This document shows, piece by piece, positions 6,445 through 12,949 of a stretch of DNA of 39,683 bases. This stretch comes from a virus. Position 1 is the first letter of the stretch; the number at the start of each line of letters is the position of its first letter. Position numbers and translations under genes: made by a program. Below the pieces are notes generated by a model. The model ran no database searches and had not been told where the DNA came from. It saw nothing but the letters and a program-made list of their open reading frames with translations. The DNA is taken from IMG/VR virus record IMGVR_UViG_3300030106_005675. The stretch is one strand, 5' to 3'.

Positions 6445-6802
6445 TCTCACAGCCATTGGCCACGTTGGCATTTCCCCACAGCAAAAAACATTTGAGTCAG
6501 GGAGAACAGTCGTAAATTTTACGCTTGCTGTTAATCACAAAAACAAAGGCGAAGATACTGTTAGTTGGATTAATTGTTCTATTTGGGGGGCACGCGGCGA
6601 AACTATTATGCGTTTTGTTAAAAAAGGCGACAAATTATGTGTGAATGGAGAGGCACAATTAACTAAAAGCAATGATGAAGATGCAAACACATATTTAAAC
6701 CTAAATGTTCAAAATTTTACATTTTTAAATTCTAAAACTAATGACAATTCTGAATCTGATGACACAATTCCTGTAGCGCCTATACAGCGTCGCCGATTTT
6801 GA
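6437..6802 (+). CDS. ssb: Single-stranded DNA-binding protein
   Basis: OB-fold signature VSWINCSIWGARGETIMRFVKKGDKLCVNGEAQL. The acidic tail is SESDDTIP. Confidence 0.85.
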   Translation: MLNLTAIGHVGISPQQKTFESGRTVVNFTLAVNHKNKGEDTVSWINCSIWGARGETIMRFVKKGDKLCVNGEAQLTKSNDEDANTYLNLNVQNFTFLNSKTNDNSESDDTIPVAPIQRRRF

Positions 6803-6816
6803 CATAGGGGGGCATC

Positions 6817-6909
6817 AAGCGCACAACCCGTGCTGTGGGTTTAGTACATGCCCTCAGTGTGCGCTTTGTGTAAGTTGCAAAACAAGTTTTTTTGAGTTGT
6901 CTTGTTTTG
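6817..6909. terminator. Nested inverted repeats at the convergent junction (candidate bidirectional terminators)
   Basis: aagcgcaca (6817-6825) pairs with tgtgcgctt (6858-6866), and caaaacaag (6878-6886) pairs with cttgttttg (6901-6909). The loops are long and there is no clean U-tract, so terminator function is uncertain. Confidence 0.3.
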
Positions 6910-7093
6910 TCCCCTTTCCCTAAAATAAATGTTGTTGCTGATTTTACTCATGAAAAATCTTGGCGTTACCTATGCGTTCCATGATGGCAATTGGCAATGG
7001 TGTGTCGAATATGCGGGCATGAAACGTTGCCATCGCCAAGACTGGCAAGCTCAACACCAGCACGAATATTTTATGCACACTCGATGCAGCGGC

Positions 7094-7312
7094 TTAAGGC
7101 GCGTCATCAAGCATTCCAGCATCTAGCTCAGCAACCCGGCCAACAGCTTGTTTTAATAATCTCGTTTGATGCCAATGCTGGCGAACCAGGGCCACGGTGA
7201 GGCCTTTTAGAATTTCAACATCTGCACAGCCCTCAACTTCCCTTACACTGCGCTCTAGCTCTAATTCCTCTTCAAGGCTTTGATTGACGATCATCCAATC
7301 TGCCCATCCCAT
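7094..7312 (-). CDS. NblA-like small helical protein (72 aa), tentative
   Basis: SLEEELELERSVREVEG...ILKGLTVALVRQHWHQTRLLKQ parallels the NblA pattern as I recall it (sLEQQF.l..f..qV ... L...l.RQ.m..en.lk). AGGGGG lies 8 nt upstream of the ATG. Confidence 0.4.
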   Translation of the reverse strand: MGWADWMIVNQSLEEELELERSVREVEGCADVEILKGLTVALVRQHWHQTRLLKQAVGRVAELDAGMLDDAP

Positions 7313-7511
7313 GAGAGCCCCCTAAGGTGCATTTTTCTGAATGGTAAGGTCCGTTTTGCTGTATGTGAATAGCATCATGCACCCAAGGGATAAGCCACGC
7401 ATGAACTGGAAAGCAATTTTGCCAATTGTCAGGGTGAGCACAATTTAAAATAACAGACGTCCAAAATGCCGTCAAAAAACTCCACAGCCAATAAAAATCA
7501 GCCATCATCAA
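7272..7511 (-). CDS. Hypothetical Trp-rich protein (79 aa)
   Basis: The ORF overlaps both neighbours (14 nt and 41 nt). Its N-terminus FYWLWSFLTAFWTSVIL is hydrophobic. Confidence 0.3.
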   Translation of the reverse strand: MMMADFYWLWSFLTAFWTSVILNCAHPDNWQNCFPVHAWLIPWVHDAIHIQQNGPYHSEKCTLGGSHGMGRLDDRQSKP

Positions 7512-8226
7512 CCAAAATTACCCAACCAGTTCTAGCCCCCTCAACCTCAAATCGTTGTTTAAAATATGATTTACGCACGCGAATTTGATAGCCTGTTTTT
7601 TTATGATCATGTCCGCCAACATCAACCAAAGGGAAACCAGCGGGGTCGGACATTATCCAATTTTGATCATCGCTATTTTTGCCGGTGTAACCCGTGATTA
7701 CGCTCCAATGGCCACAGTTAAGACGGTTGCATCGTGGCGCTTGGCCTTTTGTTAAATTGCCTTGATGTAGCCATCCCACCAAAACAGGGCGACCGCGTTC
7801 GATTTCTAATTCTAATAATGTGCCGTCACCATCTTGCCTGAAATTTGCATTTAGGCCTAAAGACCGCAAAGTTTGCAAATGAGCCCAAACCGATGTTGTA
7901 TCGCCATATTTGCGCCTTATTTCATTATATTCATCATCTGTTTTAATTTTTCCCCAAAAAGCCGCCACCATGGCAGCGGAGGAGCTGAAGCACTCCCTAT
8001 ATCCATAACCGGAAGCGTTATCGTGCTGACTGAAGTAGGGCATAAAAATTTCTTGGTCGATGCCGCTTGCGCGCCAAGCCTCAAACCAAGCCGCGTTTTC
8101 ATCAAGTAATTCCTTCGGCAAGGAGCTTTCAAGTTCTGCAATTGCAGCCAATTGATGGGGCGAGCCACGAAAAAAATGGAAAAAACTGAGCAAATTAAGA
8201 GACACGATGAATATCCTAAGTTTCAC
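7498..8226 (-). CDS. Secreted or signal-anchored papain-like cysteine peptidase (C39-like/YvpB-like); endolysin candidate
   Basis: GTG start and hydrophobic N-terminus MKLRIFIVSLNLLSFFHFF. MPYFSQHDN...YRECFSSSAAMVAAFWG carries the catalytic Cys context and CGHWSVITGY the His context. Confidence 0.6.
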   Translation of the reverse strand: MKLRIFIVSLNLLSFFHFFRGSPHQLAAIAELESSLPKELLDENAAWFEAWRASGIDQEIFMPYFSQHDNASGYGYRECFSSSAAMVAAFWGKIKTDDEYNEIRRKYGDTTSVWAHLQTLRSLGLNANFRQDGDGTLLELEIERGRPVLVGWLHQGNLTKGQAPRCNRLNCGHWSVITGYTGKNSDDQNWIMSDPAGFPLVDVGGHDHKKTGYQIRVRKSYFKQRFEVEGARTGWVILVDDG

Positions 8227-8259
8227 TAATAAAACAATGAAAGCCTTTGCTTGTATTTT

Positions 8260-8448
8260 TCAATTTTGGTTTGGCAATTTGATTTGTTTTTTTGGTAGGA
8301 ACAAATTTGCCTTTACAAAATCAACAACTTTGTCGTCAACGGTATTGTCAGTCATTTTGCAATAAGCCTCTAGCATTTCGATAACCAAATTTTTTACACC
8401 CTGAGTTTTTAAGAATTTAAAAAGAATTGGCTTGATGAGCAAAAGCAT
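8260..8448 (-). CDS. Hypothetical protein (62 aa)
   Basis: Co-oriented ORF. The 10-bp palindrome cgaggcctcg (8451-8460) lies just upstream. Confidence 0.4.
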   Translation of the reverse strand: MLLLIKPILFKFLKTQGVKNLVIEMLEAYCKMTDNTVDDKVVDFVKANLFLPKKQIKLPNQN

Positions 8449-8472
8449 GACGAGGCCTCGATTTCAGCAATT

Positions 8473-8724
8473 CTAGTGCCGATCGCTGTGACCCTCTAAC
8501 CTGGCTACAGCCCTTTCTAGCTCTCCAATACGGGCAAACACCTCAACATCCTTTGTTTTTATGTCGCCATGTAGTACATCCAACCTATTTGCAAGATTGT
8601 CAACAGCAATCGTCAGCCGCACCAATGAATCCCTAGCATGACGGTTCTGGTGGCTAAGACCAGATACGCCAATGCCTGCGACTGTGATTGATGCCCCTGC
8701 AACAGCAGCCCAAACTTCAACCAT
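8473..8724 (-). CDS. Membrane-anchored coiled-coil protein (83 aa)
   Basis: N-terminal TM helix VWAAVAGASITVAGIGVSGL, followed by the heptad-like LVRLTIAVDNLANRLDVLHGDI...ELERAVARLEG. Confidence 0.5.
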   Translation of the reverse strand: MVEVWAAVAGASITVAGIGVSGLSHQNRHARDSLVRLTIAVDNLANRLDVLHGDIKTKDVEVFARIGELERAVARLEGHSDRH

Positions 8725-8749
8725 GGTTAGCCGCTTGCGTTAATTCATC

Positions 8750-9007
8750 ATGACAGATCCCACCGAAAACCAAGACCAAGACAAAGATTTTACGCCACTT
8801 GCTGATTTTGTCCGACTTGCAGTTTTGACGTGGTCAATTGCAATGCTAAGCCTGAATTATTTAGGCTACGTGAAGGCAATGGATCCAACCTTTCCCGCCA
8901 GTCTTCTAACTGGCACAATGGCATCGTTTGGCGTCAACGTGGGTCGCGCTAACACTAAGAAAAAAGAGGATGGCACTAGACTGGAACAAACACCATTAAA
9001 AAAATGA
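8750..9007 (+). CDS. Two-TM small membrane protein (85 aa), holin-like topology
   Basis: Acidic N-terminus, two hydrophobic stretches (FVRLAVLTWSIAMLSLNYLGYV and FPASLLTGTMASFGV) and a basic C-terminus. ATGA overlap with the next gene. Confidence 0.5.
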   Translation: MTDPTENQDQDKDFTPLADFVRLAVLTWSIAMLSLNYLGYVKAMDPTFPASLLTGTMASFGVNVGRANTKKKEDGTRLEQTPLKK

Positions 9008-9498
9008 AACCATTTGCATTGTTGTTTGCACTTGCTTTGCTAGCACCCTGTGCTCGCGCTGACATCACACATAGAATTTCATCAAGTATTCAACTGCAAG
9101 TTGATGGTGCCGGGTCTGTATCGACGCGAGTTCCTTCGGTTTATGCTGTTAGTGGCAATAACGTCACTTTGGGCACTGCTGGTGGGCTTGGCACCCTTAC
9201 ACCTGGCGCCGCTGTTGGCTTTACTCCCGCTGATTACTCTATTACTACTGCTGGCGATGCATTTAGTTTGACTGAATCTTATATTGAAGGTGACGCAACC
9301 CCAACAGTGTTATCAACAACAGTTACATCAGGAGTCGTGCCTGCGTTGCCAATATTTGGACAAAATACGACAACTTCCGGTGGTGTTCCGGGGTCACTTG
9401 CTGGAACAATTGCAACTGATGGTGCTTTACAAATTACAGCCGGAAGCTCTGGCACATCTGCAATTGGTCAAGTTATACAAGAGCTTACTATAAGATGA
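9004..9498 (+). CDS. Secreted beta-rich T/G/S-rich protein (164 aa), unknown family
   Basis: Signal peptide MKPFALLFALALLAPCARA followed by DI. No Cys in the mature part. ATGA overlaps at both ends. Confidence 0.6.
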   Translation: MKPFALLFALALLAPCARADITHRISSSIQLQVDGAGSVSTRVPSVYAVSGNNVTLGTAGGLGTLTPGAAVGFTPADYSITTAGDAFSLTESYIEGDATPTVLSTTVTSGVVPALPIFGQNTTTSGGVPGSLAGTIATDGALQITAGSSGTSAIGQVIQELTIR

Positions 9499-9926
9499 TA
9501 TTGTTACTTTTGATAGTGCTTGGCCTGTTTCCAACTGCTTCAGAAGCTGTTCCAGTCGTGCCGAATTTCCAGCAAGGTCTTATGAATTCGACAACAAAAA
9601 CAAAAACACAAGTAAAAGAAATTATTAATAGCTACGAATACAGGACAGGCTATGAGTATAGCGTTTCTGGCACAAATATTCAATCAATGAATGGTAAGCT
9701 CGCCCCTAAAAATTTAGATATTACAACTAACACGATAAATGGCATTTCTAGCCGATGGGTTGGGCTTGATGCGTCAAGCCGTCCAACATGGAATCTTGTT
9801 AACGAAGGCGCTAGTTTTCAATTTGTAGAAACTTTAAACGGGCCTGGTTTAGTCAATCATACTTTAATCGAAAGGACAACTGACATTGAATCTTTGACAG
9901 AAACGACTAGCACTTTTACTCAATGA
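9495..9926 (+). CDS. Secreted protein (143 aa), unknown family
   Basis: Signal peptide MILLLLIVLGLFPTASEA followed by VP. ATGA overlaps at both ends. Confidence 0.6.
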   Translation: MILLLLIVLGLFPTASEAVPVVPNFQQGLMNSTTKTKTQVKEIINSYEYRTGYEYSVSGTNIQSMNGKLAPKNLDITTNTINGISSRWVGLDASSRPTWNLVNEGASFQFVETLNGPGLVNHTLIERTTDIESLTETTSTFTQ

Positions 9927-10630
9927 GAAAGTTTTTGGCAGCTTTTTTTTTACTTGCCGCTCCTGTAAATGCACAAGTTAGTGGCACTGCTGCACCAGTT
10001 GCAAATAGCTCAGGCAGTGTAACCAATCAAGCTGTGCAAGTTGTGCCCTCTAGACAATTCAGTTATTTATACGGCAACGGCGTAAGTTGCCAAGGCGCAA
10101 CCTTAAACATAAACCCTTTTATTAGCACGACAACCAGTTGGGCTAATCCATATGAGGGGTTTTACAATGAACCCGTTTACGATACTTTAGATTTAGTTGG
10201 TGCTTTTGATCCTGAGGGCAACCCAATCCCTGACGGCGTACCTGATAACCCTGGAAACATTTTGTATTATCGGCCTATTAGAACCGGGCAGAAAACAAAT
10301 TTCTCAATTAATGGCGGTATCACTGCAACATTTTCAATCCCTTTGGACAATTCTCTTATTAAAGCATGTCGGCGCGCCGCGCAAAAAAGAGTCGAACTAT
10401 TAGAAGCAACTTTAGCCGATAAACGATTAAATTATGAACTTGCTAGAGTAAAAAATTGCGGCGAATTAATGAAAGCAGGGATAATTTTCCATCCCAAATC
10501 GCCATATGCAGCAATTTGCGCGGATGTAGTTCTAGTTAATCCCCCCGGTGTGATCCCTCCACATGTCCATAAAATCCCTATTTCCTCAGGCGACGTTGAG
10601 ACACTTGACGCTGAAAAACAGATTCAATAA
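9923..10630 (+). CDS. Secreted Cys-containing protein (235 aa), unknown family
   Basis: Signal peptide MRKFLAAFFLLAAPVNA followed by QV. Several Cys in the mature part. A T9 tract at 9943-9951 lies in the signal-peptide codons. Confidence 0.6.
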   Translation: MRKFLAAFFLLAAPVNAQVSGTAAPVANSSGSVTNQAVQVVPSRQFSYLYGNGVSCQGATLNINPFISTTTSWANPYEGFYNEPVYDTLDLVGAFDPEGNPIPDGVPDNPGNILYYRPIRTGQKTNFSINGGITATFSIPLDNSLIKACRRAAQKRVELLEATLADKRLNYELARVKNCGELMKAGIIFHPKSPYAAICADVVLVNPPGVIPPHVHKIPISSGDVETLDAEKQIQ

Positions 10631-11366
10631 TTTTTTTCCTTGTTAATTTCTCTTTAATTTTTTTAATCGTTTTTTTCACAATTGGTTTAACTGCCCTCAG
10701 TGCAAAATCGCCTAATGGTTTGACAAAAATGGCAACAGTAGTTGCAACAGATGTAATTGTGGCTGTTGTTATGACCACTGGCGCCCCTGGCAAATAATTA
10801 TCAATAATATTAATAACTGGGAGAGTTTCCGTTTCGGGCACGCAATCGCCATTAATTGTGTTATATGCAACAATTATTGCCGTTTGTGATTTATTCTTGG
10901 CGCCGATTGGAATTGCATCTGGTGGCGGACATGGCAAATCTTTGGTTAAAATAGGCATGTCAGTTGGCCCGGCACTAACTGACGGAAGGGGGGGCGAAGC
11001 CGGTTGGTTTTTTGAATCAGCCGGTTTTGCTTCATTTTTTGCTTCATTTTTTGGCTCTATCGCCGGTGGTTTTGCTGTCCCATAAATTAATGTACCGGGA
11101 GTAAAATTTAATGGTTCATAGTATGGGGCGGTACCATCACACAAGACATAGTTGCCTTTTGGATCGTTGTCATATGCATCATTATTCCCAGGTTGTATCT
11201 TTCGAGTTTTCACACACCCTGGCATCTGAATAATTGGAAAGCCTAAGCCTGAAGTTATTGGCGGTGCACTTGGAAGGCTTTGAAGCGGCAGAGATTGCCA
11301 CACGGGAACTGGTGGGATATAAACGCTTCCAACGCCAATTTCAGGAATATTTGGGATTTCAGGCAC
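10578..11366 (-). CDS. Pro-rich protein with C-terminal TM anchor (262 aa)
   Basis: GTG start directly after an in-frame TAA. The N-terminal two-thirds is Pro-rich and contains Cys residues. PKNEAKNEAKP comes from a 12-bp tandem repeat (11029-11052). The C-terminal segment APVVITTATITSVATTVAIFV is followed by a K/R-rich tail. Confidence 0.55.
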   Translation of the reverse strand: MPEIPNIPEIGVGSVYIPPVPVWQSLPLQSLPSAPPITSGLGFPIIQMPGCVKTRKIQPGNNDAYDNDPKGNYVLCDGTAPYYEPLNFTPGTLIYGTAKPPAIEPKNEAKNEAKPADSKNQPASPPLPSVSAGPTDMPILTKDLPCPPPDAIPIGAKNKSQTAIIVAYNTINGDCVPETETLPVINIIDNYLPGAPVVITTATITSVATTVAIFVKPLGDFALRAVKPIVKKTIKKIKEKLTRKKIIESVFQRQVSQRRLRK

Positions 11367-11381
11367 GACTTAAAAACCTGT

Positions 11382-11600
11382 TTAAGGTTGCCATTCTTTA
11401 ATTACAGCTAAACGACCTTTGATTTCACTTTCACTTTCTCTTGCAAAAATGCCAATGTCAATGCCAATTAAAGCTTTAGCCATTGCGCCGTAACGATTTT
11501 GCGATTTATGCCGTTCATAGCTATCAATAATTAATATTTTTGCATCAGAATAAGACAACCACGGGTGCCGCTCTTGCAAGAATTTGATTGCTTTTTTCAT
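11382..11600 (-). CDS. Hypothetical protein (72 aa)
   Basis: Coupled to the upstream ORF by an ATGA-type overlap at 11597-11600. Confidence 0.5.
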   Translation of the reverse strand: MKKAIKFLQERHPWLSYSDAKILIIDSYERHKSQNRYGAMAKALIGIDIGIFARESESEIKGRLAVIKEWQP

Positions 11601-11875
11601 TGTTTTAGTTCCCTAGTTTTTTGCAAAGGTATTGCAGGCCCGGTCACTTGCGGCAAAGATGGTAGATTTTTGATAGTTTCATCTATTTCATGTAATTTTT
11701 CGTCTATTACTTTAGGCATCATTTGTTTAACCTCAGGTAATATGTCGCCTTTTACGCCTTCAATGTATTCTTGTGTTATTTTTGGAATGAACCAATAAGC
11801 TGCAACCGTCGCCGCTGTTAATCCTGCAGACAACACAAAGCCAGCAACTGCAATTACATTGAAAAGCTTTTGCAT
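11597..11875 (-). CDS. N-terminally TM-anchored small protein (92 aa)
   Basis: VIAVAGFVLSAGLTAATVAAYWFI is a TM helix. The ATG lies 3 nt after the terminator U-tract. Confidence 0.55.
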   Translation of the reverse strand: MQKLFNVIAVAGFVLSAGLTAATVAAYWFIPKITQEYIEGVKGDILPEVKQMMPKVIDEKLHEIDETIKNLPSLPQVTGPAIPLQKTRELKQ

Positions 11876-11878
11876 AAT

Positions 11879-11902
11879 AAAAAAAAAGCCCCGTTTGGGG
11901 CT
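11879..11902 (-). terminator. Rho-independent terminator after the OMP-like gene
   Basis: The minus strand reads AGCCCC-AAAC-GGGGCT followed by a run of T (plus-strand A run at 11879-11887). Confidence 0.7.
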
Positions 11903-11929
11903 TGGATCGTGTGAGGCTTCCGTTATAGC

Positions 11930-12286
11930 CTAAAAACTGTATTTGGCGCCGATTTTCGTGCCAAATGACGGATCGTCATCAGTCGTAATAAAACTGACTT
12001 CGCCATAAAAATTTAATTTTTCAGTGGCGTTAACGCTGCCGCCAACTTTGGCCGAAACCTCCATTTCTGCGTCACCATCATCTGGCGCCACAATGGCAGG
12101 GCCTAGCTGGGCATAGTAGCCATAAGTTGAATCGCCGCCCTCATACCCAACATGAAGATCAGTAATTGAGCCGACATAATCGCCCCCTGAGTAGCCGCCG
12201 TTATTTTCGACGTTCACAAAGGGGCCGGCCAAGGCAGGCGCTCCAGCGAGCACACCACTGGCAACTATCAAAAACGCTTTGAACAT
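11930..12286 (-). CDS. Small outer-membrane beta-barrel-like protein (118 aa)
   Basis: Signal peptide MFKAFLIVASGVLAGAPALA followed by GP. Alternating hydrophobic strands and G/D/Y-rich turns. C-terminal ...GAKYSF has a terminal Phe beta-signal. Confidence 0.6.
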   Translation of the reverse strand: MFKAFLIVASGVLAGAPALAGPFVNVENNGGYSGGDYVGSITDLHVGYEGGDSTYGYYAQLGPAIVAPDDGDAEMEVSAKVGGSVNATEKLNFYGEVSFITTDDDPSFGTKIGAKYSF

Positions 12287-12294
12287 GAGGAAAA

Positions 12295-12420
12295 TTAACG
12301 TTTACCTTGCCCACGGTATCGTTTTTTGCCCTTGGCTGGTTTGGAGTGTGTGCCATTGCCTTGATGGGTTTTTTTTGGATTGCTTGGTAAAAAAACGCCC
12401 CCGCTTAGTGGCTTAGCCAT
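12295..12420 (-). CDS. Tiny basic protein (41 aa), not in the ORF track
   Basis: Hand translation gives MAKPLSGGVFLPSNPKKTHQGNGTHSKPAKGKKRYRGQGKR. Its ATG overlaps the upstream stop (TAATG at 12418-12422). Confidence 0.35.
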   Translation of the reverse strand: MAKPLSGGVFLPSNPKKTHQGNGTHSKPAKGKKRYRGQGKR

Positions 12421-12623
12421 TAGTTTTCGTCTGTTCCTGGAAACGTGCTGACATGTTTTTTATGTAAACCGGTATAAAGGCCGTGCAACGGGTGTGTTTG
12501 CCGGTCTCGTCCTTCCAACATGTAAAGCATTTCAAGCCATTCAACACGATTTCTCATGCATTCAACGTCCTCTGCCTTTGGCAATAAAGGGATCAGAGGA
12601 TGCAAACGTTTTTTCAAGTCCAA
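12420..12623 (-). CDS. Hypothetical protein (67 aa)
   Basis: Co-oriented ORF overlapping the upstream ORF by 10 nt. Confidence 0.5.
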   Translation of the reverse strand: MDLKKRLHPLIPLLPKAEDVECMRNRVEWLEMLYMLEGRDRQTHPLHGLYTGLHKKHVSTFPGTDEN

Positions 12624-12949
12624 GGCTTGCCCTTCCCCATTGTTGGTGTGCGTTGCTCATCAAGATGACTTTGCAAAGTTTGCTCTAATTTCGTAATATA
12701 AGTGTCTCCATTGTCTTTAGTAAGTTTTGCTTTAGTTGCCGAAATCGCCCAATCTTCTGTCAAATCAGCGTAAGGCGTTAAATCACTATCAGATTCTGGC
12801 TGGTCAAGTGCCGTTGAGCCATATGCACCGCTTTGATAAGTGCCATCAGAGGCATCAATTGAATAATGAACTGTAGTGACGGCACCGTTTGAAAGCTTGC
12901 GTTCCAGTTCGTTAATAATCCATTTAAAAGTCGTAACGGGGTCGGCCAT
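12614..12949 (-). CDS. Hypothetical protein downstream of the tail fibre (111 aa)
   Basis: ORF 33 nt after the fibre gene. No motif recognised. Confidence 0.55.
   Translation of the reverse strand: MADPVTTFKWIINELERKLSNGAVTTVHYSIDASDGTYQSGAYGSTALDQPESDSDLTPYADLTEDWAISATKAKLTKDNGDTYITKLEQTLQSHLDEQRTPTMGKGKPWT

What the first reader, a model, noticed from the sequence alone, without database searches (positions are those of the whole stretch)
8750..10630. Inverted four-gene cassette: a 2-TM protein plus three Sec-signal secreted orphan proteins inside the late/lysis region
These are the only plus-strand genes between 7094 and 39570. Three consecutive ATGA start/stop overlaps (9004-9007, 9495-9498, 9923-9926) link the four genes into one translationally coupled unit.

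The first product has holin-like topology: an acidic N-terminus, two hydrophobic helices and a basic C-terminus. The other three each start with a textbook signal peptide (cleavage contexts ARA/D, SEA/V, VNA/Q) and look beta-rich. I recognise no family motif in any of the four.

The cassette splits a run of minus-strand membrane-protein genes (11875-10578 and 8724-7498). That pattern suggests an inserted or inverted module rather than core virion genes.

As inference only, the module could remodel the envelope or act in the periplasm. Possible roles include receptor masking, superinfection exclusion, an assembled surface structure or a non-canonical lysis accessory.
Basis: partly seen in the sequence, partly recalled or inferred. 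Interest (0 to 1): 0.75.

Follow-up and report, generated by a model that had tools for sequence, protein, structure and literature searches.

The report
Conserved cyanophage envelope-protein gene cassette
The four genes are real, but they are not orphans: they are one arm of a cassette of membrane and secreted proteins found in hundreds of marine cyanobacterial viruses, noted in 2010 and still without a known function, and it may be those viruses' missing cell-bursting machinery.

Summary
Four plus-strand ORFs (8750-9007, 9004-9498, 9495-9926, 9923-10630) are joined by three ATGA overlaps. They encode a 2-TM protein and three proteins with Sec-type signal peptides.

"Orphan" and "inserted module" do not hold. 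The products belong to Pfam DUF6450, PHROG 564, DUF6322/PHROG 650 and PHROG 848. With the converging minus-strand genes 10578-11366 and 11597-11875 they form the cluster Sullivan et al. (2010) described in T4-like cyanophages (T4-GC 218, 234-237 plus "plasmid stability"). I find it in T4-like myoviruses, T7-like podoviruses and siphoviruses of Prochlorococcus and Synechococcus, and in no genuine cellular genome.

In relatives the genes are transcribed late and the products are absent from virion proteomes. In T7-like phages they occupy the slot where T7 keeps its holin and spanins. In two lineages they adjoin an endolysin-like peptidase. Marine cyanophages have no recognisable spanins.

My best reading (about 0.4) is a late envelope-disruption (lysis) module: ORF1 as holin candidate, the secreted proteins acting on the periplasm and outer membrane. 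Structure prediction and fold search gave no functional match, so the mechanism is inferred. This copy is a new member of a known but uncharacterised kind.

The parts
8750..9007 (+). ORF1 (85 aa): small 2-TM membrane protein with acidic N-terminus and basic C-tail; Pfam DUF6450; homologue of Syn9 gp161, P-HM2 PHM2_191 (T4-GC 218) and P-SSP7 PSSP7_043; holin candidate
   Evidence: Pfam DUF6450 E 3.3e-15, 56 bits against a cut-off of 25. PHROGs 721, 2714 and 21865. Hydropathy. Homologue mapping. In locus L040 its homologue overlaps by 4 nt the start of a Peptidase_C39_2 'endolysin' gene.
9004..9498 (+). ORF2 (164 aa): Sec signal peptide (ARA|D), G/T/S/A-rich beta protein; PHROG 564; homologue of Syn9 gp167 and PHM2_197 (T4-GC 237); paralogue of ORF3; not a lipoprotein
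   Evidence: PHROG 564 E 7.9e-39. Signal peptide and mature N-terminus conserved in 65 homologues, Cys16 not conserved. hhalign ORF2 against ORF3: probability 96.8%, E 3e-10.
9495..9926 (+). ORF3 (143 aa): Sec signal peptide (SEA|V), all-beta soluble protein; Pfam DUF6322, PHROG 650; homologue of Syn9 gp166, PHM2_196 (T4-GC 236) and PSSP7_044
   Evidence: DUF6322 E 1e-35. PHROG 650 E 4.5e-49. Invariant mature N-terminus VPVVPNF.QG and C-terminal F.Q. AF2 pLDDT 74.9, long beta strands 28-50 and 118-141. No amphipathic membrane-type strands.
9923..10630 (+). ORF4 (235 aa): Sec signal peptide (VNA|Q); motif SPVANSSGSVTNQA; four invariant Cys (56, 149, 179, 199); beta region followed by a roughly 40-residue helix; PHROG 848; homologue of Syn9 gp165, PHM2_195 (T4-GC 235) and PSSP7_045
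   Evidence: PHROG 848 E 3.5e-86. 441 phage records by tblastn. Invariant columns. AF2 poor: pLDDT 50.6, helix 143-184. 534 clusters at 50% identity.
10578..11366 (-). gp164-like protein (262 aa): Pro-rich N-terminal part with MPGC motif and 4 conserved Cys, TMD 197-215, basic C-tail; converges on ORF4 and overlaps it by 53 nt; PHROG 570; T4-GC 234
   Evidence: PHROG 570 E 7.1e-53. Hydropathy. Conservation. Present next to ORF4 in 75 of 84 loci. Tail-to-tail overlap in 72 of 90 loci.
11597..11875 (-). gp162-like 'plasmid stability' protein (92 aa): N-terminal TMD with a helical remainder (Rz-like topology); PHROG 568; T4-GC 414
   Evidence: PHROG 568 E 2.9e-12. TMD 7-25. Syntenic in Syn9, MED4-117, P-HM2 and L040.
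11930..12286 (-). Small signal-peptide protein with Pfam Phage_OMP (cyanophage outer-membrane-protein-like beta barrel); loosely linked to the cassette in siphoviruses and in several T4-like loci
   Evidence: PF24653 E 5e-39. Found near the cassette in 21 of 84 loci.
8473..8724 (-). 83-aa protein: G/A-rich N-terminal TMD with a coiled-coil-like remainder; diverges from ORF1 across a 25-nt spacer; PHROG 26178
   Evidence: Syntenic in 17 siphovirus-type loci.
8260..8448 (-). 62-aa protein, PHROG 2738/402; homologues lie next to the cassette in T7-like cyanophages (9515-10a CYOG_00023, P-SSP7, S-SBP1) and in MED4-117
7498..8226 (-). Endolysin-like papain-fold peptidase (Peptidase_C39_2; PHROG 10051 'endolysin') with a hydrophobic N-terminus
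   Evidence: PF13529 E 1.2e-7, 32.8 bits against a cut-off of 24. PHROG 10051 E 1.5e-54. N-terminus MKLRIFIVSLNLLSFFHFF. Adjacent to the cassette in 21 siphovirus-type loci and in L040/L046.

Best explanation
The four genes are one arm of a conserved, cyanophage-specific envelope cassette. The whole cassette comprises:
- ORF1/DUF6450;
- the paralogous secreted beta proteins ORF2 and ORF3/DUF6322;
- the Cys-containing secreted protein ORF4 (the Syn9 gp165 family);
- the converging membrane-anchored gp164-like protein;
- the gp162-like 'plasmid stability' protein;
- often a small phage outer-membrane protein.

I propose it is a late-expressed lysis and egress module that deals with the envelope of marine picocyanobacteria. 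ORF1 would act as the holin-type inner-membrane protein working with the neighbouring endolysin-like peptidase. ORF2-4 would be exported by Sec late in infection. Together with the inner-membrane-anchored gp164-like and gp162-like proteins, and possibly the phage OMP, they would form a periplasm-to-outer-membrane assembly that breaks the outer layers once the wall is cut. That is the job spanins or disruptins do in other phages.

Shown: homology, synteny, export signals, conserved cysteines, late transcription in relatives, absence from virions, and restriction to phages.

Inferred: the holin role of ORF1, any physical complex, and outer-membrane disruption.
For: Identity:
- Family hits for all parts.
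- The same gene order in Syn9, S-TIM54, MED4-117, P-HM2, P-SSP7, 9515-10a and 80 IMG/VR loci.
- The P-HM2 record labels the homologues T4-GC 218, 414, 234, 235, 236 and 237. That is the cluster of Sullivan et al. 2010, PMC3037559.

Envelope location:
- Conserved signal peptides.
- Four invariant Cys in ORF4 and four conserved Cys in gp164-like.
- TMDs in ORF1, gp164-like and gp162-like.
- Phage_OMP next door.

Timing:
- In P-HM2, PHM2_191-194 and 197 are 'Late', 196 is Late/Mid and 195 is Mid (Thompson 2016, supplementary file 3).
- In P-SSP7 the homologues are genes 42-45, inside the late block 29-51.

Not virion proteins: none of the T4-GCs appears in the S-SM1, Syn9 or S-PM2 virion proteome table.

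Link to lysis:
- In the window and 21 related loci the cassette abuts an endolysin-like C39 peptidase and two small TM proteins.
- In L040/L046 the ORF1 homologue is translationally coupled to a signal-less C39 'endolysin'.
- In T7-like cyanophages the genes lie between the tail fibre and terminase genes. T7 keeps holin 17.5 and spanins 18.5/18.7 there (T7 map from my own knowledge).
- 20 of 91 'spanin-less' phages infect Prochlorococcus or Synechococcus, including Syn9, P-SSP7 and P-HM2 (Kongari 2018).
- No lipobox ORF exists in 6800-12600.

Host-specific, not phage-type-specific: the cassette is shared by three morphotypes with unrelated tails and is found only in cyanophage or marine viral sequence.
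Against: - No experimental or structural evidence for function. AF2 of ORF4 failed (pLDDT 50.6).
- The ORF3 model (pLDDT 74.9) has no significant PDB match. The best hit is E 0.025 with TM 0.22 or less. BFVD returns only uncharacterised homologues.
- Profile searches against PDB sequences return nothing.
- No part matches a known holin or spanin family. Rz-like PHROG hits to the small TM proteins are E 0.2-0.4.
- Six or seven proteins is far more than known outer-membrane disruption systems need.
- Sullivan 2010 reports that the lytic cyanomyovirus S-PM2 lacks the cluster. I checked only its first 50 kb and found no hits. So the cluster is not universally required for lysis.
- In T4-like phages the cassette sits among replication genes, which says nothing about lysis.
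- gp164-like has no signal peptide, so its topology is unclear.
Confidence: 0.4

Rival explanations
1. Envelope remodelling that protects the infected cell or the progeny. The secreted proteins would mask or alter surface receptors, either as superinfection exclusion or to stop new virions adsorbing to debris. They would not take part in lysis itself.
For: All products are targeted to the membrane, periplasm or outer membrane. A phage-encoded OMP is linked. Late expression would fit protection of progeny at release.
Against: The same cassette is shared by myo-, podo- and siphoviruses with unrelated tail fibres, and so probably different receptors. There are no PADLOC hits. No integrase or other lysogeny gene was detected in the nearly complete genome. 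Classical exclusion proteins, such as T4 Imm and Sp, are early (my own knowledge). Gene neighbours are lysis-type, not early genes.
Confidence: 0.2
2. A periplasmic or outer-membrane assembly that supports the infection physiologically. Examples are a transport or uptake structure, or envelope stabilisation that delays premature lysis, in the manner of an auxiliary host-interaction module.
For: Cyanophages carry many host-interaction genes, including the periplasmic PstS (title seen). In T4-like phages the cassette lies beside hsp20, hli and other auxiliary genes. ORF2 and ORF3 are soluble beta proteins without catalytic motifs.
Against: No cellular homologue exists from which such a function could derive. 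Only 27 loci were found in 185,579 genomes, all on marine MAG or single-cell contigs that look like phage. Auxiliary metabolic genes are mostly early or middle, while these are mostly late. The cassette is retained in minimal genomes of 38-47 kb.
Confidence: 0.15
3. Minor virion or ejection proteins, for example proteins that build a trans-envelope conduit at entry.
For: Late co-expression with structural genes. Position next to tail-fibre genes in sipho- and podoviruses.
Against: Sec signal peptides would export the proteins away from cytoplasmic assembly. None of the cluster's T4-GCs is among the 41 S-SM1 or the Syn9 virion proteins. S-TIM54 annotates neighbours, but not these genes, as virion proteins.
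Confidence: 0.05
4. A selfish mobile cassette whose spread is helped by the 'plasmid stability' gene, as Sullivan et al. 2010 suggested, with no dedicated role in the infection cycle.
For: Its position varies among T4-like genomes. It is present in three unrelated phage backbones.
Against: The 'plasmid stability' protein is a 92-aa N-terminally anchored membrane protein with no partition or toxin domain. No recombinase, repeats or tRNA flank the cassette in the window. There is strong purifying conservation over more than 500 clusters at 50% identity. It is retained in very small genomes.
Confidence: 0.05

Closest known systems
Cyanophage cluster of T4-GC 218, 219, 234, 235 and 237 plus 'plasmid stability' (Sullivan et al. 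2010, Environ Microbiol 12:3035; Syn9 gp161-gp167; P-HM2 PHM2_191-197; P-SSP7 genes 42-45)
   Same: Homologous proteins one for one: ORF1=GC218, ORF2=GC237, ORF3=GC236, ORF4=GC235, 10578-11366=GC234, 11597-11875=GC414. The convergent layout and tail-to-tail overlap are the same.
   Different: In this siphovirus group ORF1 heads the plus-strand arm instead of ending the other arm. ORF4 has an ordinary ATG and signal peptide instead of the long upstream overlap seen in T4-like and T7-like phages. The cassette lies directly beside an endolysin-like gene and a phage OMP gene. No function has been published for the cluster, as far as my ten searches of the held library show.
Two-component spanins (lambda Rz/Rz1, T7 gp18.5/18.7, T4 PseT.3/PseT.2)
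   Same: Late envelope proteins. Inner-membrane-anchored proteins with helical periplasmic parts (the gp162-like protein and the 83-aa protein). Conserved periplasmic cysteines. In T7-like cyanophages, the same genomic slot.
   Different: No lipoprotein (lipobox) partner anywhere in 6800-12600. No embedded or overlapped Rz1-type gene. No sequence similarity. Three soluble secreted proteins have no counterpart in spanins.
Class II holins and pinholins (for example lambda S, phage 21 S68)
   Same: ORF1 is small, has two TMDs and a charged C-terminal tail, and in one lineage sits immediately upstream of, and coupled to, an endolysin-like gene.
   Different: No homology to any annotated holin PHROG or Pfam family. 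No dual-start motif seen. Hole formation untested.
Disruptin-type and other non-spanin outer-membrane disruptors (phiKT gp28)
   Same: They solve the same problem in spanin-less phages.
   Different: Disruptin is a single small cationic peptide. Here there are several larger, mostly acidic or neutral beta-rich secreted proteins.

Membership tests
Sullivan-2010 cyanophage cluster (T4-GC 218/234-237/414) | Homologues of each cluster protein | tested here: met
   tblastn of the window proteins onto Syn9, P-HM2, S-TIM54, MED4-117 and P-SSP7. T4-GC labels are in the P-HM2 record.
Sullivan-2010 cyanophage cluster (T4-GC 218/234-237/414) | Conserved clustering: gp167->166->165 converging on gp164, with gp162/gp161 nearby | tested here: met
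   Of 84 loci, ORF3 is present in 79, gp164-like in 75, ORF2 in 71 and ORF1 in 63. The orientation is as in the window.
Sullivan-2010 cyanophage cluster (T4-GC 218/234-237/414) | Restricted to phages of marine picocyanobacteria | tested here: met
   441-442 phage records, all Synechococcus, Prochlorococcus, cyanophage or marine virus. Only 27 hits in 185,579 genomes, all marine MAG or single-cell contigs.
Pfam DUF6450 (ORF1) and DUF6322 (ORF3) | Score above the Pfam gathering threshold | tested here: met
   56.1 bits against 25, and 122.7 bits against 30.6.
Holin (class II) | Small protein with two TMDs and a charged C-terminus | tested here: met
   Hydropathy. P-SSP7 homologue annotated with 2 TMHMM helices. 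The second helix is weak.
Holin (class II) | Genetic linkage to an endolysin | tested here: inconclusive
   Adjacent but divergent in the window and 21 related loci. Coupled directly upstream of a C39 'endolysin' in L040/L046. Not linked in Syn9-type phages.
Holin (class II) | Timed, lethal hole formation in the inner membrane | not testable with these tools
   Needs expression and lysis assays.
Two-component spanin | Outer-membrane lipoprotein subunit with a lipobox | tested here: not met
   No ORF with a lipobox in any frame of 6800-12600. Cys16 of ORF2 is not conserved.
Two-component spanin | Type II inner-membrane subunit with a periplasmic coiled coil | tested here: inconclusive
   The gp162-like protein and the 83-aa protein have this layout, but their Rz-like PHROG hits are only E 0.2-0.4.
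Unimolecular spanin (T1 gp11) | N-terminal lipoprotein signal plus a C-terminal TMD in one chain | tested here: not met
   gp164-like has the C-terminal TMD but a conserved, non-hydrophobic N-terminus MP(E/D)IP and no lipobox.
Virion structural protein | Detected in purified particles | tested here: not met
   Absent from the S-SM1 and Syn9 proteome table (Sullivan 2010 Table S8). Tested in relatives only, not in this phage.
Known anti-phage or exclusion systems (PADLOC) | Match to a PADLOC model | tested here: not met
   0 hits for 10 proteins at E up to 1.
Beta-barrel pore formers, OMPs, MCE (LetB) and TolC-like OEP | Significant sequence or fold match; amphipathic membrane strands | tested here: not met
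   Foldseek best E 0.025 with TM 0.24 or less. LetB phmmer E 0.44. OEP in 2 of 37 members, best E 4.4e-4, below cut-off. Profiles against PDB give 0 hits. ORF3 has no amphipathic strands.

The most novel reading that the evidence does not exclude
The cassette is a previously unrecognised, lipoprotein-free, multi-protein outer-envelope disruption system. It would comprise a holin-like ORF1, two paralogous periplasmic beta proteins, a disulphide-bonded helix-bearing protein, and two inner-membrane-anchored partners with or without a phage OMP. It would replace spanins in essentially all marine Prochlorococcus and Synechococcus phages, and it would have moved between myo-, podo- and siphoviruses because it is matched to the host envelope.
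Probability: 0.3. Interest if true: 0.8.

Novelty: new member of a known kind. Interest (0 to 1): 0.5.

Why it matters
Prochlorococcus and Synechococcus phages kill a large share of ocean primary producers, yet how they open the cell is unknown. They have no recognisable spanins, and holins are mostly unassigned. A cassette of 6-7 envelope-targeted proteins is kept in hundreds of cyanophage genomes across three morphotypes, including genomes of only 38-47 kb. It is expressed late and is absent from virions. That makes it the obvious candidate for this missing step. The siphovirus version found here is compact, sits next to its endolysin and has plain start codons, so it offers a convenient construct for testing. 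Even if lysis proves to be the wrong function, the family is among the most widespread uncharacterised gene sets in marine viruses.

Tried and rejected
1. ORF3-ORF4 fusion in podovirus 9515-10a. Rejected: the ORF3 homologue is a separate, unannotated ORF in another frame under an over-extended 'gp165' CDS.
2. ORF2 as a lipoprotein (LLAPC). Rejected: the Cys is not conserved.
3. MCE/LetB similarity of ORF4. phmmer gives E 0.44 and 0.9 to one protein. It was not recovered by Pfam, by profile searches or by Foldseek.
4. TolC-like OEP. Seen in 2 of 37 members, best E 4.4e-4, below the cut-off and not supported by PDB profile search.
5. LPXTG surface protein hit of ORF3 (E 0.0023). It disappears when the search is repeated with the ORF3 alignment profile.
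6. Pore-forming-toxin look of the ORF3 model (anthrax PA, lysenin, CDTb). E is 0.1 or more, TM 0.24 or less, and there are no amphipathic strands.
7. AF2 of ORF4 with 105 sequences from two clades gave pLDDT 50.6, which is unusable.
8. The sigma-70 promoter and terminator scan was no better than shuffles.
9. Literature: ten full-text searches found no functional study of the cluster. The Syn9 transcriptome paper (Doron 2016) is not held.
10. Absence from S-PM2 was checked only for the first 50 kb. The rest rests on Sullivan 2010.
Full report
**1. Observation**

The four plus-strand ORFs exist exactly as described: 8750-9007 (85 aa), 9004-9498 (164 aa), 9495-9926 (143 aa) and 9923-10630 (235 aa). 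ATGA overlaps lie at 9004, 9495 and 9923. Every other plus-strand ORF of 90 aa or more between 7094 and 39570 is nested in a longer minus-strand ORF.

ORF1 has an acidic N-terminus, a clear hydrophobic helix, a weaker G/S/T/A-rich second helix and a basic tail. ORF2-4 begin with n-h-c signal-peptide layouts.

GC content of the cassette (0.42-0.43) matches the rest of the window. Only the GC skew changes, as expected for a switch of coding strand.

The window is a small lambda-like siphovirus. It has a tape measure, J-type tip, major head protein, portal and TerL, plus exonuclease, Erf, RusA, SSB and an AAA_25 protein. No integrase was found. ORF4 is 100% identical to a hypothetical protein of 'Prokaryotic dsDNA virus sp. 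Unbinned1819contig1001', a contig of 39,737 bp.

**2. The products are not orphans**

| Product | Family | E-value |
|---|---|---|
| ORF1 | Pfam DUF6450 | 3.3e-15 |
| ORF2 | PHROG 564 | 7.9e-39 |
| ORF3 | Pfam DUF6322 | 1e-35 |
| ORF3 | PHROG 650 | 4.5e-49 |
| ORF4 | PHROG 848 | 3.5e-86 |

All these families are labelled 'unknown function'.

- tblastn with ORF4 finds 441 phage records. All are Synechococcus or Prochlorococcus phages or marine viral sequences.
- Protein searches find more than 5,700 clusters for ORF4 and at least 8,000 for ORF3.
- The ORF4 family forms 534 clusters at 50% identity.
- A scan of one genome for each of 185,579 bacterial and archaeal species gave only 27 loci. All are on marine MAG or single-cell contigs that look like phage DNA. 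The family is therefore phage-specific.

**3. The unit is larger than four genes and has been described before**

- Syn9: gp167 (ORF2), gp166 (ORF3) and gp165 (ORF4) converge on gp164 (the window's 10578-11366). Then come gp163, gp162 'plasmid stability' (the window's 11597-11875) and gp161 (ORF1).
- P-HM2: the record labels the homologues T4-GC 218, 414, 234, 235, 236 and 237. [quoted passage not shown] 2010 found in 15 of 16 cyanomyoviruses and left without function.
- Prochlorococcus siphovirus MED4-117 has the window's layout.
- T7-like podoviruses (9515-10a, P-SSP7, S-SBP1) carry homologues of ORF1, ORF3 and ORF4. They also carry a short gp164-like protein and a homologue of the window's 62-aa protein. 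No ORF2 homologue was found there. All these genes lie between the tail fibre and terminase genes.
- Across 84 loci the ORF2->3->4 order, converging on gp164-like, is nearly universal. The two converging genes overlap tail-to-tail in 72 of 90 loci.

**4. Protein features**

- Signal peptides are conserved in every ORF2 and ORF3 homologue, and the mature N-termini are conserved directly after the predicted cleavage site.
- ORF2 and ORF3 are paralogues (hhalign probability 96.8%, E 3e-10).
- ORF4 has four invariant cysteines and the invariant motifs SPVANSSGSVTNQA and RTGQK.
- gp164-like has a conserved MPGC motif and four conserved cysteines, followed by a TMD and a basic tail. It has no signal peptide, so its topology is unclear.
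- gp162-like is a 92-aa protein with an N-terminal anchor and a helical remainder. Nothing supports the 'plasmid stability' label.
- A Phage_OMP gene (PF24653) follows at 11930-12286.
- No lipobox ORF exists in 6800-12600.

**5. Structure**

- The AF2 model of ORF3 (pLDDT 74.9) is all-beta with very long strands. Foldseek finds no significant PDB match (best E 0.025, TM 0.24 or less). In BFVD it finds only uncharacterised cyanophage homologues. The family profile shows no amphipathic membrane-type strands, so ORF3 is probably soluble.
- AF2 of ORF4 failed (pLDDT 50.6). Only a beta region followed by a helix at 143-184 is suggested, and its fold search is meaningless.
- Profile searches against PDB sequences return nothing.

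**6. Timing and location in relatives**

- In P-HM2, PHM2_191-194 and 197 are classed Late, 196 Late/Mid and 195 Mid (Thompson 2016 supplement).
- P-SSP7 genes 42-45 lie within its late block, genes 29-51.
- None of the cluster's T4-GCs is listed among proteins detected in S-SM1, Syn9 or S-PM2 virions.

**7. Link to lysis**

- In the window the cassette diverges, across a 25-nt spacer, from an 83-aa TM/coiled-coil protein, a 62-aa protein and a Peptidase_C39_2/PHROG 10051 'endolysin' with a hydrophobic N-terminus. Twenty-one related loci share this arrangement.
- In a different lineage (L040, L046) the ORF1 homologue overlaps by 4 nt the start of a signal-less C39 'endolysin'. That is a classical holin-endolysin arrangement.
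- In T7-like cyanophages the genes occupy the slot where T7 keeps holin 17.5 and spanins 18.5/18.7 (my own knowledge of the T7 map).
- Kongari et al. 2018 list Syn9, P-SSP7, P-HM2 and 17 other picocyanobacterial phages as spanin-less. [quoted passage not shown]

**8. Best explanation (confidence about 0.4 for function, above 0.9 for identity)**

This is a late lysis and egress module tuned to the picocyanobacterial envelope. ORF1 is the holin-type partner of the endolysin-like peptidase. The Sec-exported ORF2-4, together with the membrane-anchored gp164-like and gp162-like proteins and perhaps the OMP, would act on the periplasm and outer membrane. Only homology, export signals, timing, absence from virions and gene linkage are shown. 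The complex and the disruption step are inferred.

Points against:
- There is no structural or family match.
- The system is more complex than any known outer-membrane disruptor.
- S-PM2 is reported to lack the cluster.
- The context in T4-like genomes is uninformative.

**9. Rivals**

| Rival | Confidence | Main weaknesses |
|---|---|---|
| Receptor masking or exclusion | 0.2 | Shared across morphotypes; late timing; no lysogeny genes; no PADLOC hit |
| Physiological envelope module | 0.15 | No cellular homologue; late timing |
| Virion or ejection proteins | 0.05 | Signal peptides; virion proteomes |
| Selfish mobile cassette | 0.05 | 'Plasmid stability' protein has no partition or toxin domain; no flanking recombinase, repeats or tRNA; strong purifying conservation |

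**10. Novelty**

The kind is known but uncharacterised. This copy is a new member, in an uncultured siphovirus. It stands out for its compactness, its plain start codons and its direct adjacency to the endolysin. Interest is moderate (0.5). It would be high if the spanin-replacement reading were proved.

**11. Side observations**

- In T4-like and T7-like phages and in MED4-117, the ORF4 homologue has no start codon next to its signal peptide. Its frame stays open 121-427 nt into the ORF3 gene. In about 50 T4-like loci an ATG sits 163 or 169 nt upstream of the ORF3 stop, built on ORF3's invariant Trp codon.
- The 9515-10a record misses the ORF3 homologue.
- A strong terminator-like hairpin lies at 11903-11886.

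Noticed in passing
L002:4788-5016 (Syn9), also L001, L003, L004, L029-L113; window 9923-9926 for contrast: In T4-like and T7-like cyanophages and in MED4-117, the gp165/ORF4 homologue has a signal-peptide-like segment with no ATG, GTG or TTG beside it. Its reading frame (-1 relative to ORF3) stays open 121-427 nt upstream of the ORF3 stop. In about 50 T4-like loci an in-frame ATG lies exactly 163 or 169 nt upstream, formed by a wobble A plus the TG of ORF3's invariant Trp codon. This suggests a long out-of-frame overlap giving a basic N-terminal extension of about 55 aa, or frameshifting, or unusual initiation. The window's own group has a plain ATGA junction.
   Followed up: partly
window 10578-10630; 90 related loci: ORF4 and the gp164-like gene converge and overlap at their 3' ends (53 nt in the window). 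The overlap is present in 72 of 90 loci, with a median of 80 nt and a maximum of 230 nt. This implies convergent transcription through each other's ends.
   Followed up: partly
L003:4627-4998 (Cyanophage 9515-10a, NC_016657): An unannotated 123-aa DUF6322/ORF3 homologue with its own signal peptide lies under the N-terminally over-extended 'gp165' CDS. At first this looked like an ORF3-ORF4 fusion, but it is not.
   Followed up: yes
window 11597-11875 (-): The widely copied 'plasmid stability' annotation (PHROG 568, T4-GC 414) belongs to a 92-aa protein with an N-terminal TMD and a helical remainder. No partition, toxin or DNA-binding domain was found.
   Followed up: partly
window 11886-11903 (-): A strong terminator-like hairpin (AAGCCCCAAACGGGGCTT followed by T7) lies immediately after the Phage_OMP gene and immediately before the gp162-like start. 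It may separate the structural operon from the cassette's minus-strand arm.
   Followed up: no
window 8725-8749: Only 25 nt separate the divergent start codons of the 83-aa TM protein (8724, minus strand) and ORF1 (8750, plus strand). Both promoters must therefore lie inside coding sequence, or transcription must read in from elsewhere.
   Followed up: no
window 7498-8226 (-): The endolysin candidate is a papain-fold Peptidase_C39_2 protein with a hydrophobic N-terminus, suggesting Sec-dependent or signal-anchored export. Its homologue in L040 (1231-2010) has no such segment.
   Followed up: partly
window 12614-12949 (-): A 111-aa DUF7936/PHROG 7802 protein lies just downstream of the tail-fibre gene. 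It has a homologue in the same position in the T7-like 9515-10a (CYOG_00028), another small gene shared across morphotypes.
   Followed up: no
window 9923-10630 (residues 96-111 and 213-218): ORF4 carries a nearly invariant D-x-x-G-N-P-I-x-D-G-x-x-D-N-P-G stretch, which looks like a calcium-binding loop, and a nearly invariant P-H-x-H-x-I near the C-terminus. Long family members carry insertions in the variable stretch between the Cys56 region and this D/G-rich loop.
   Followed up: no
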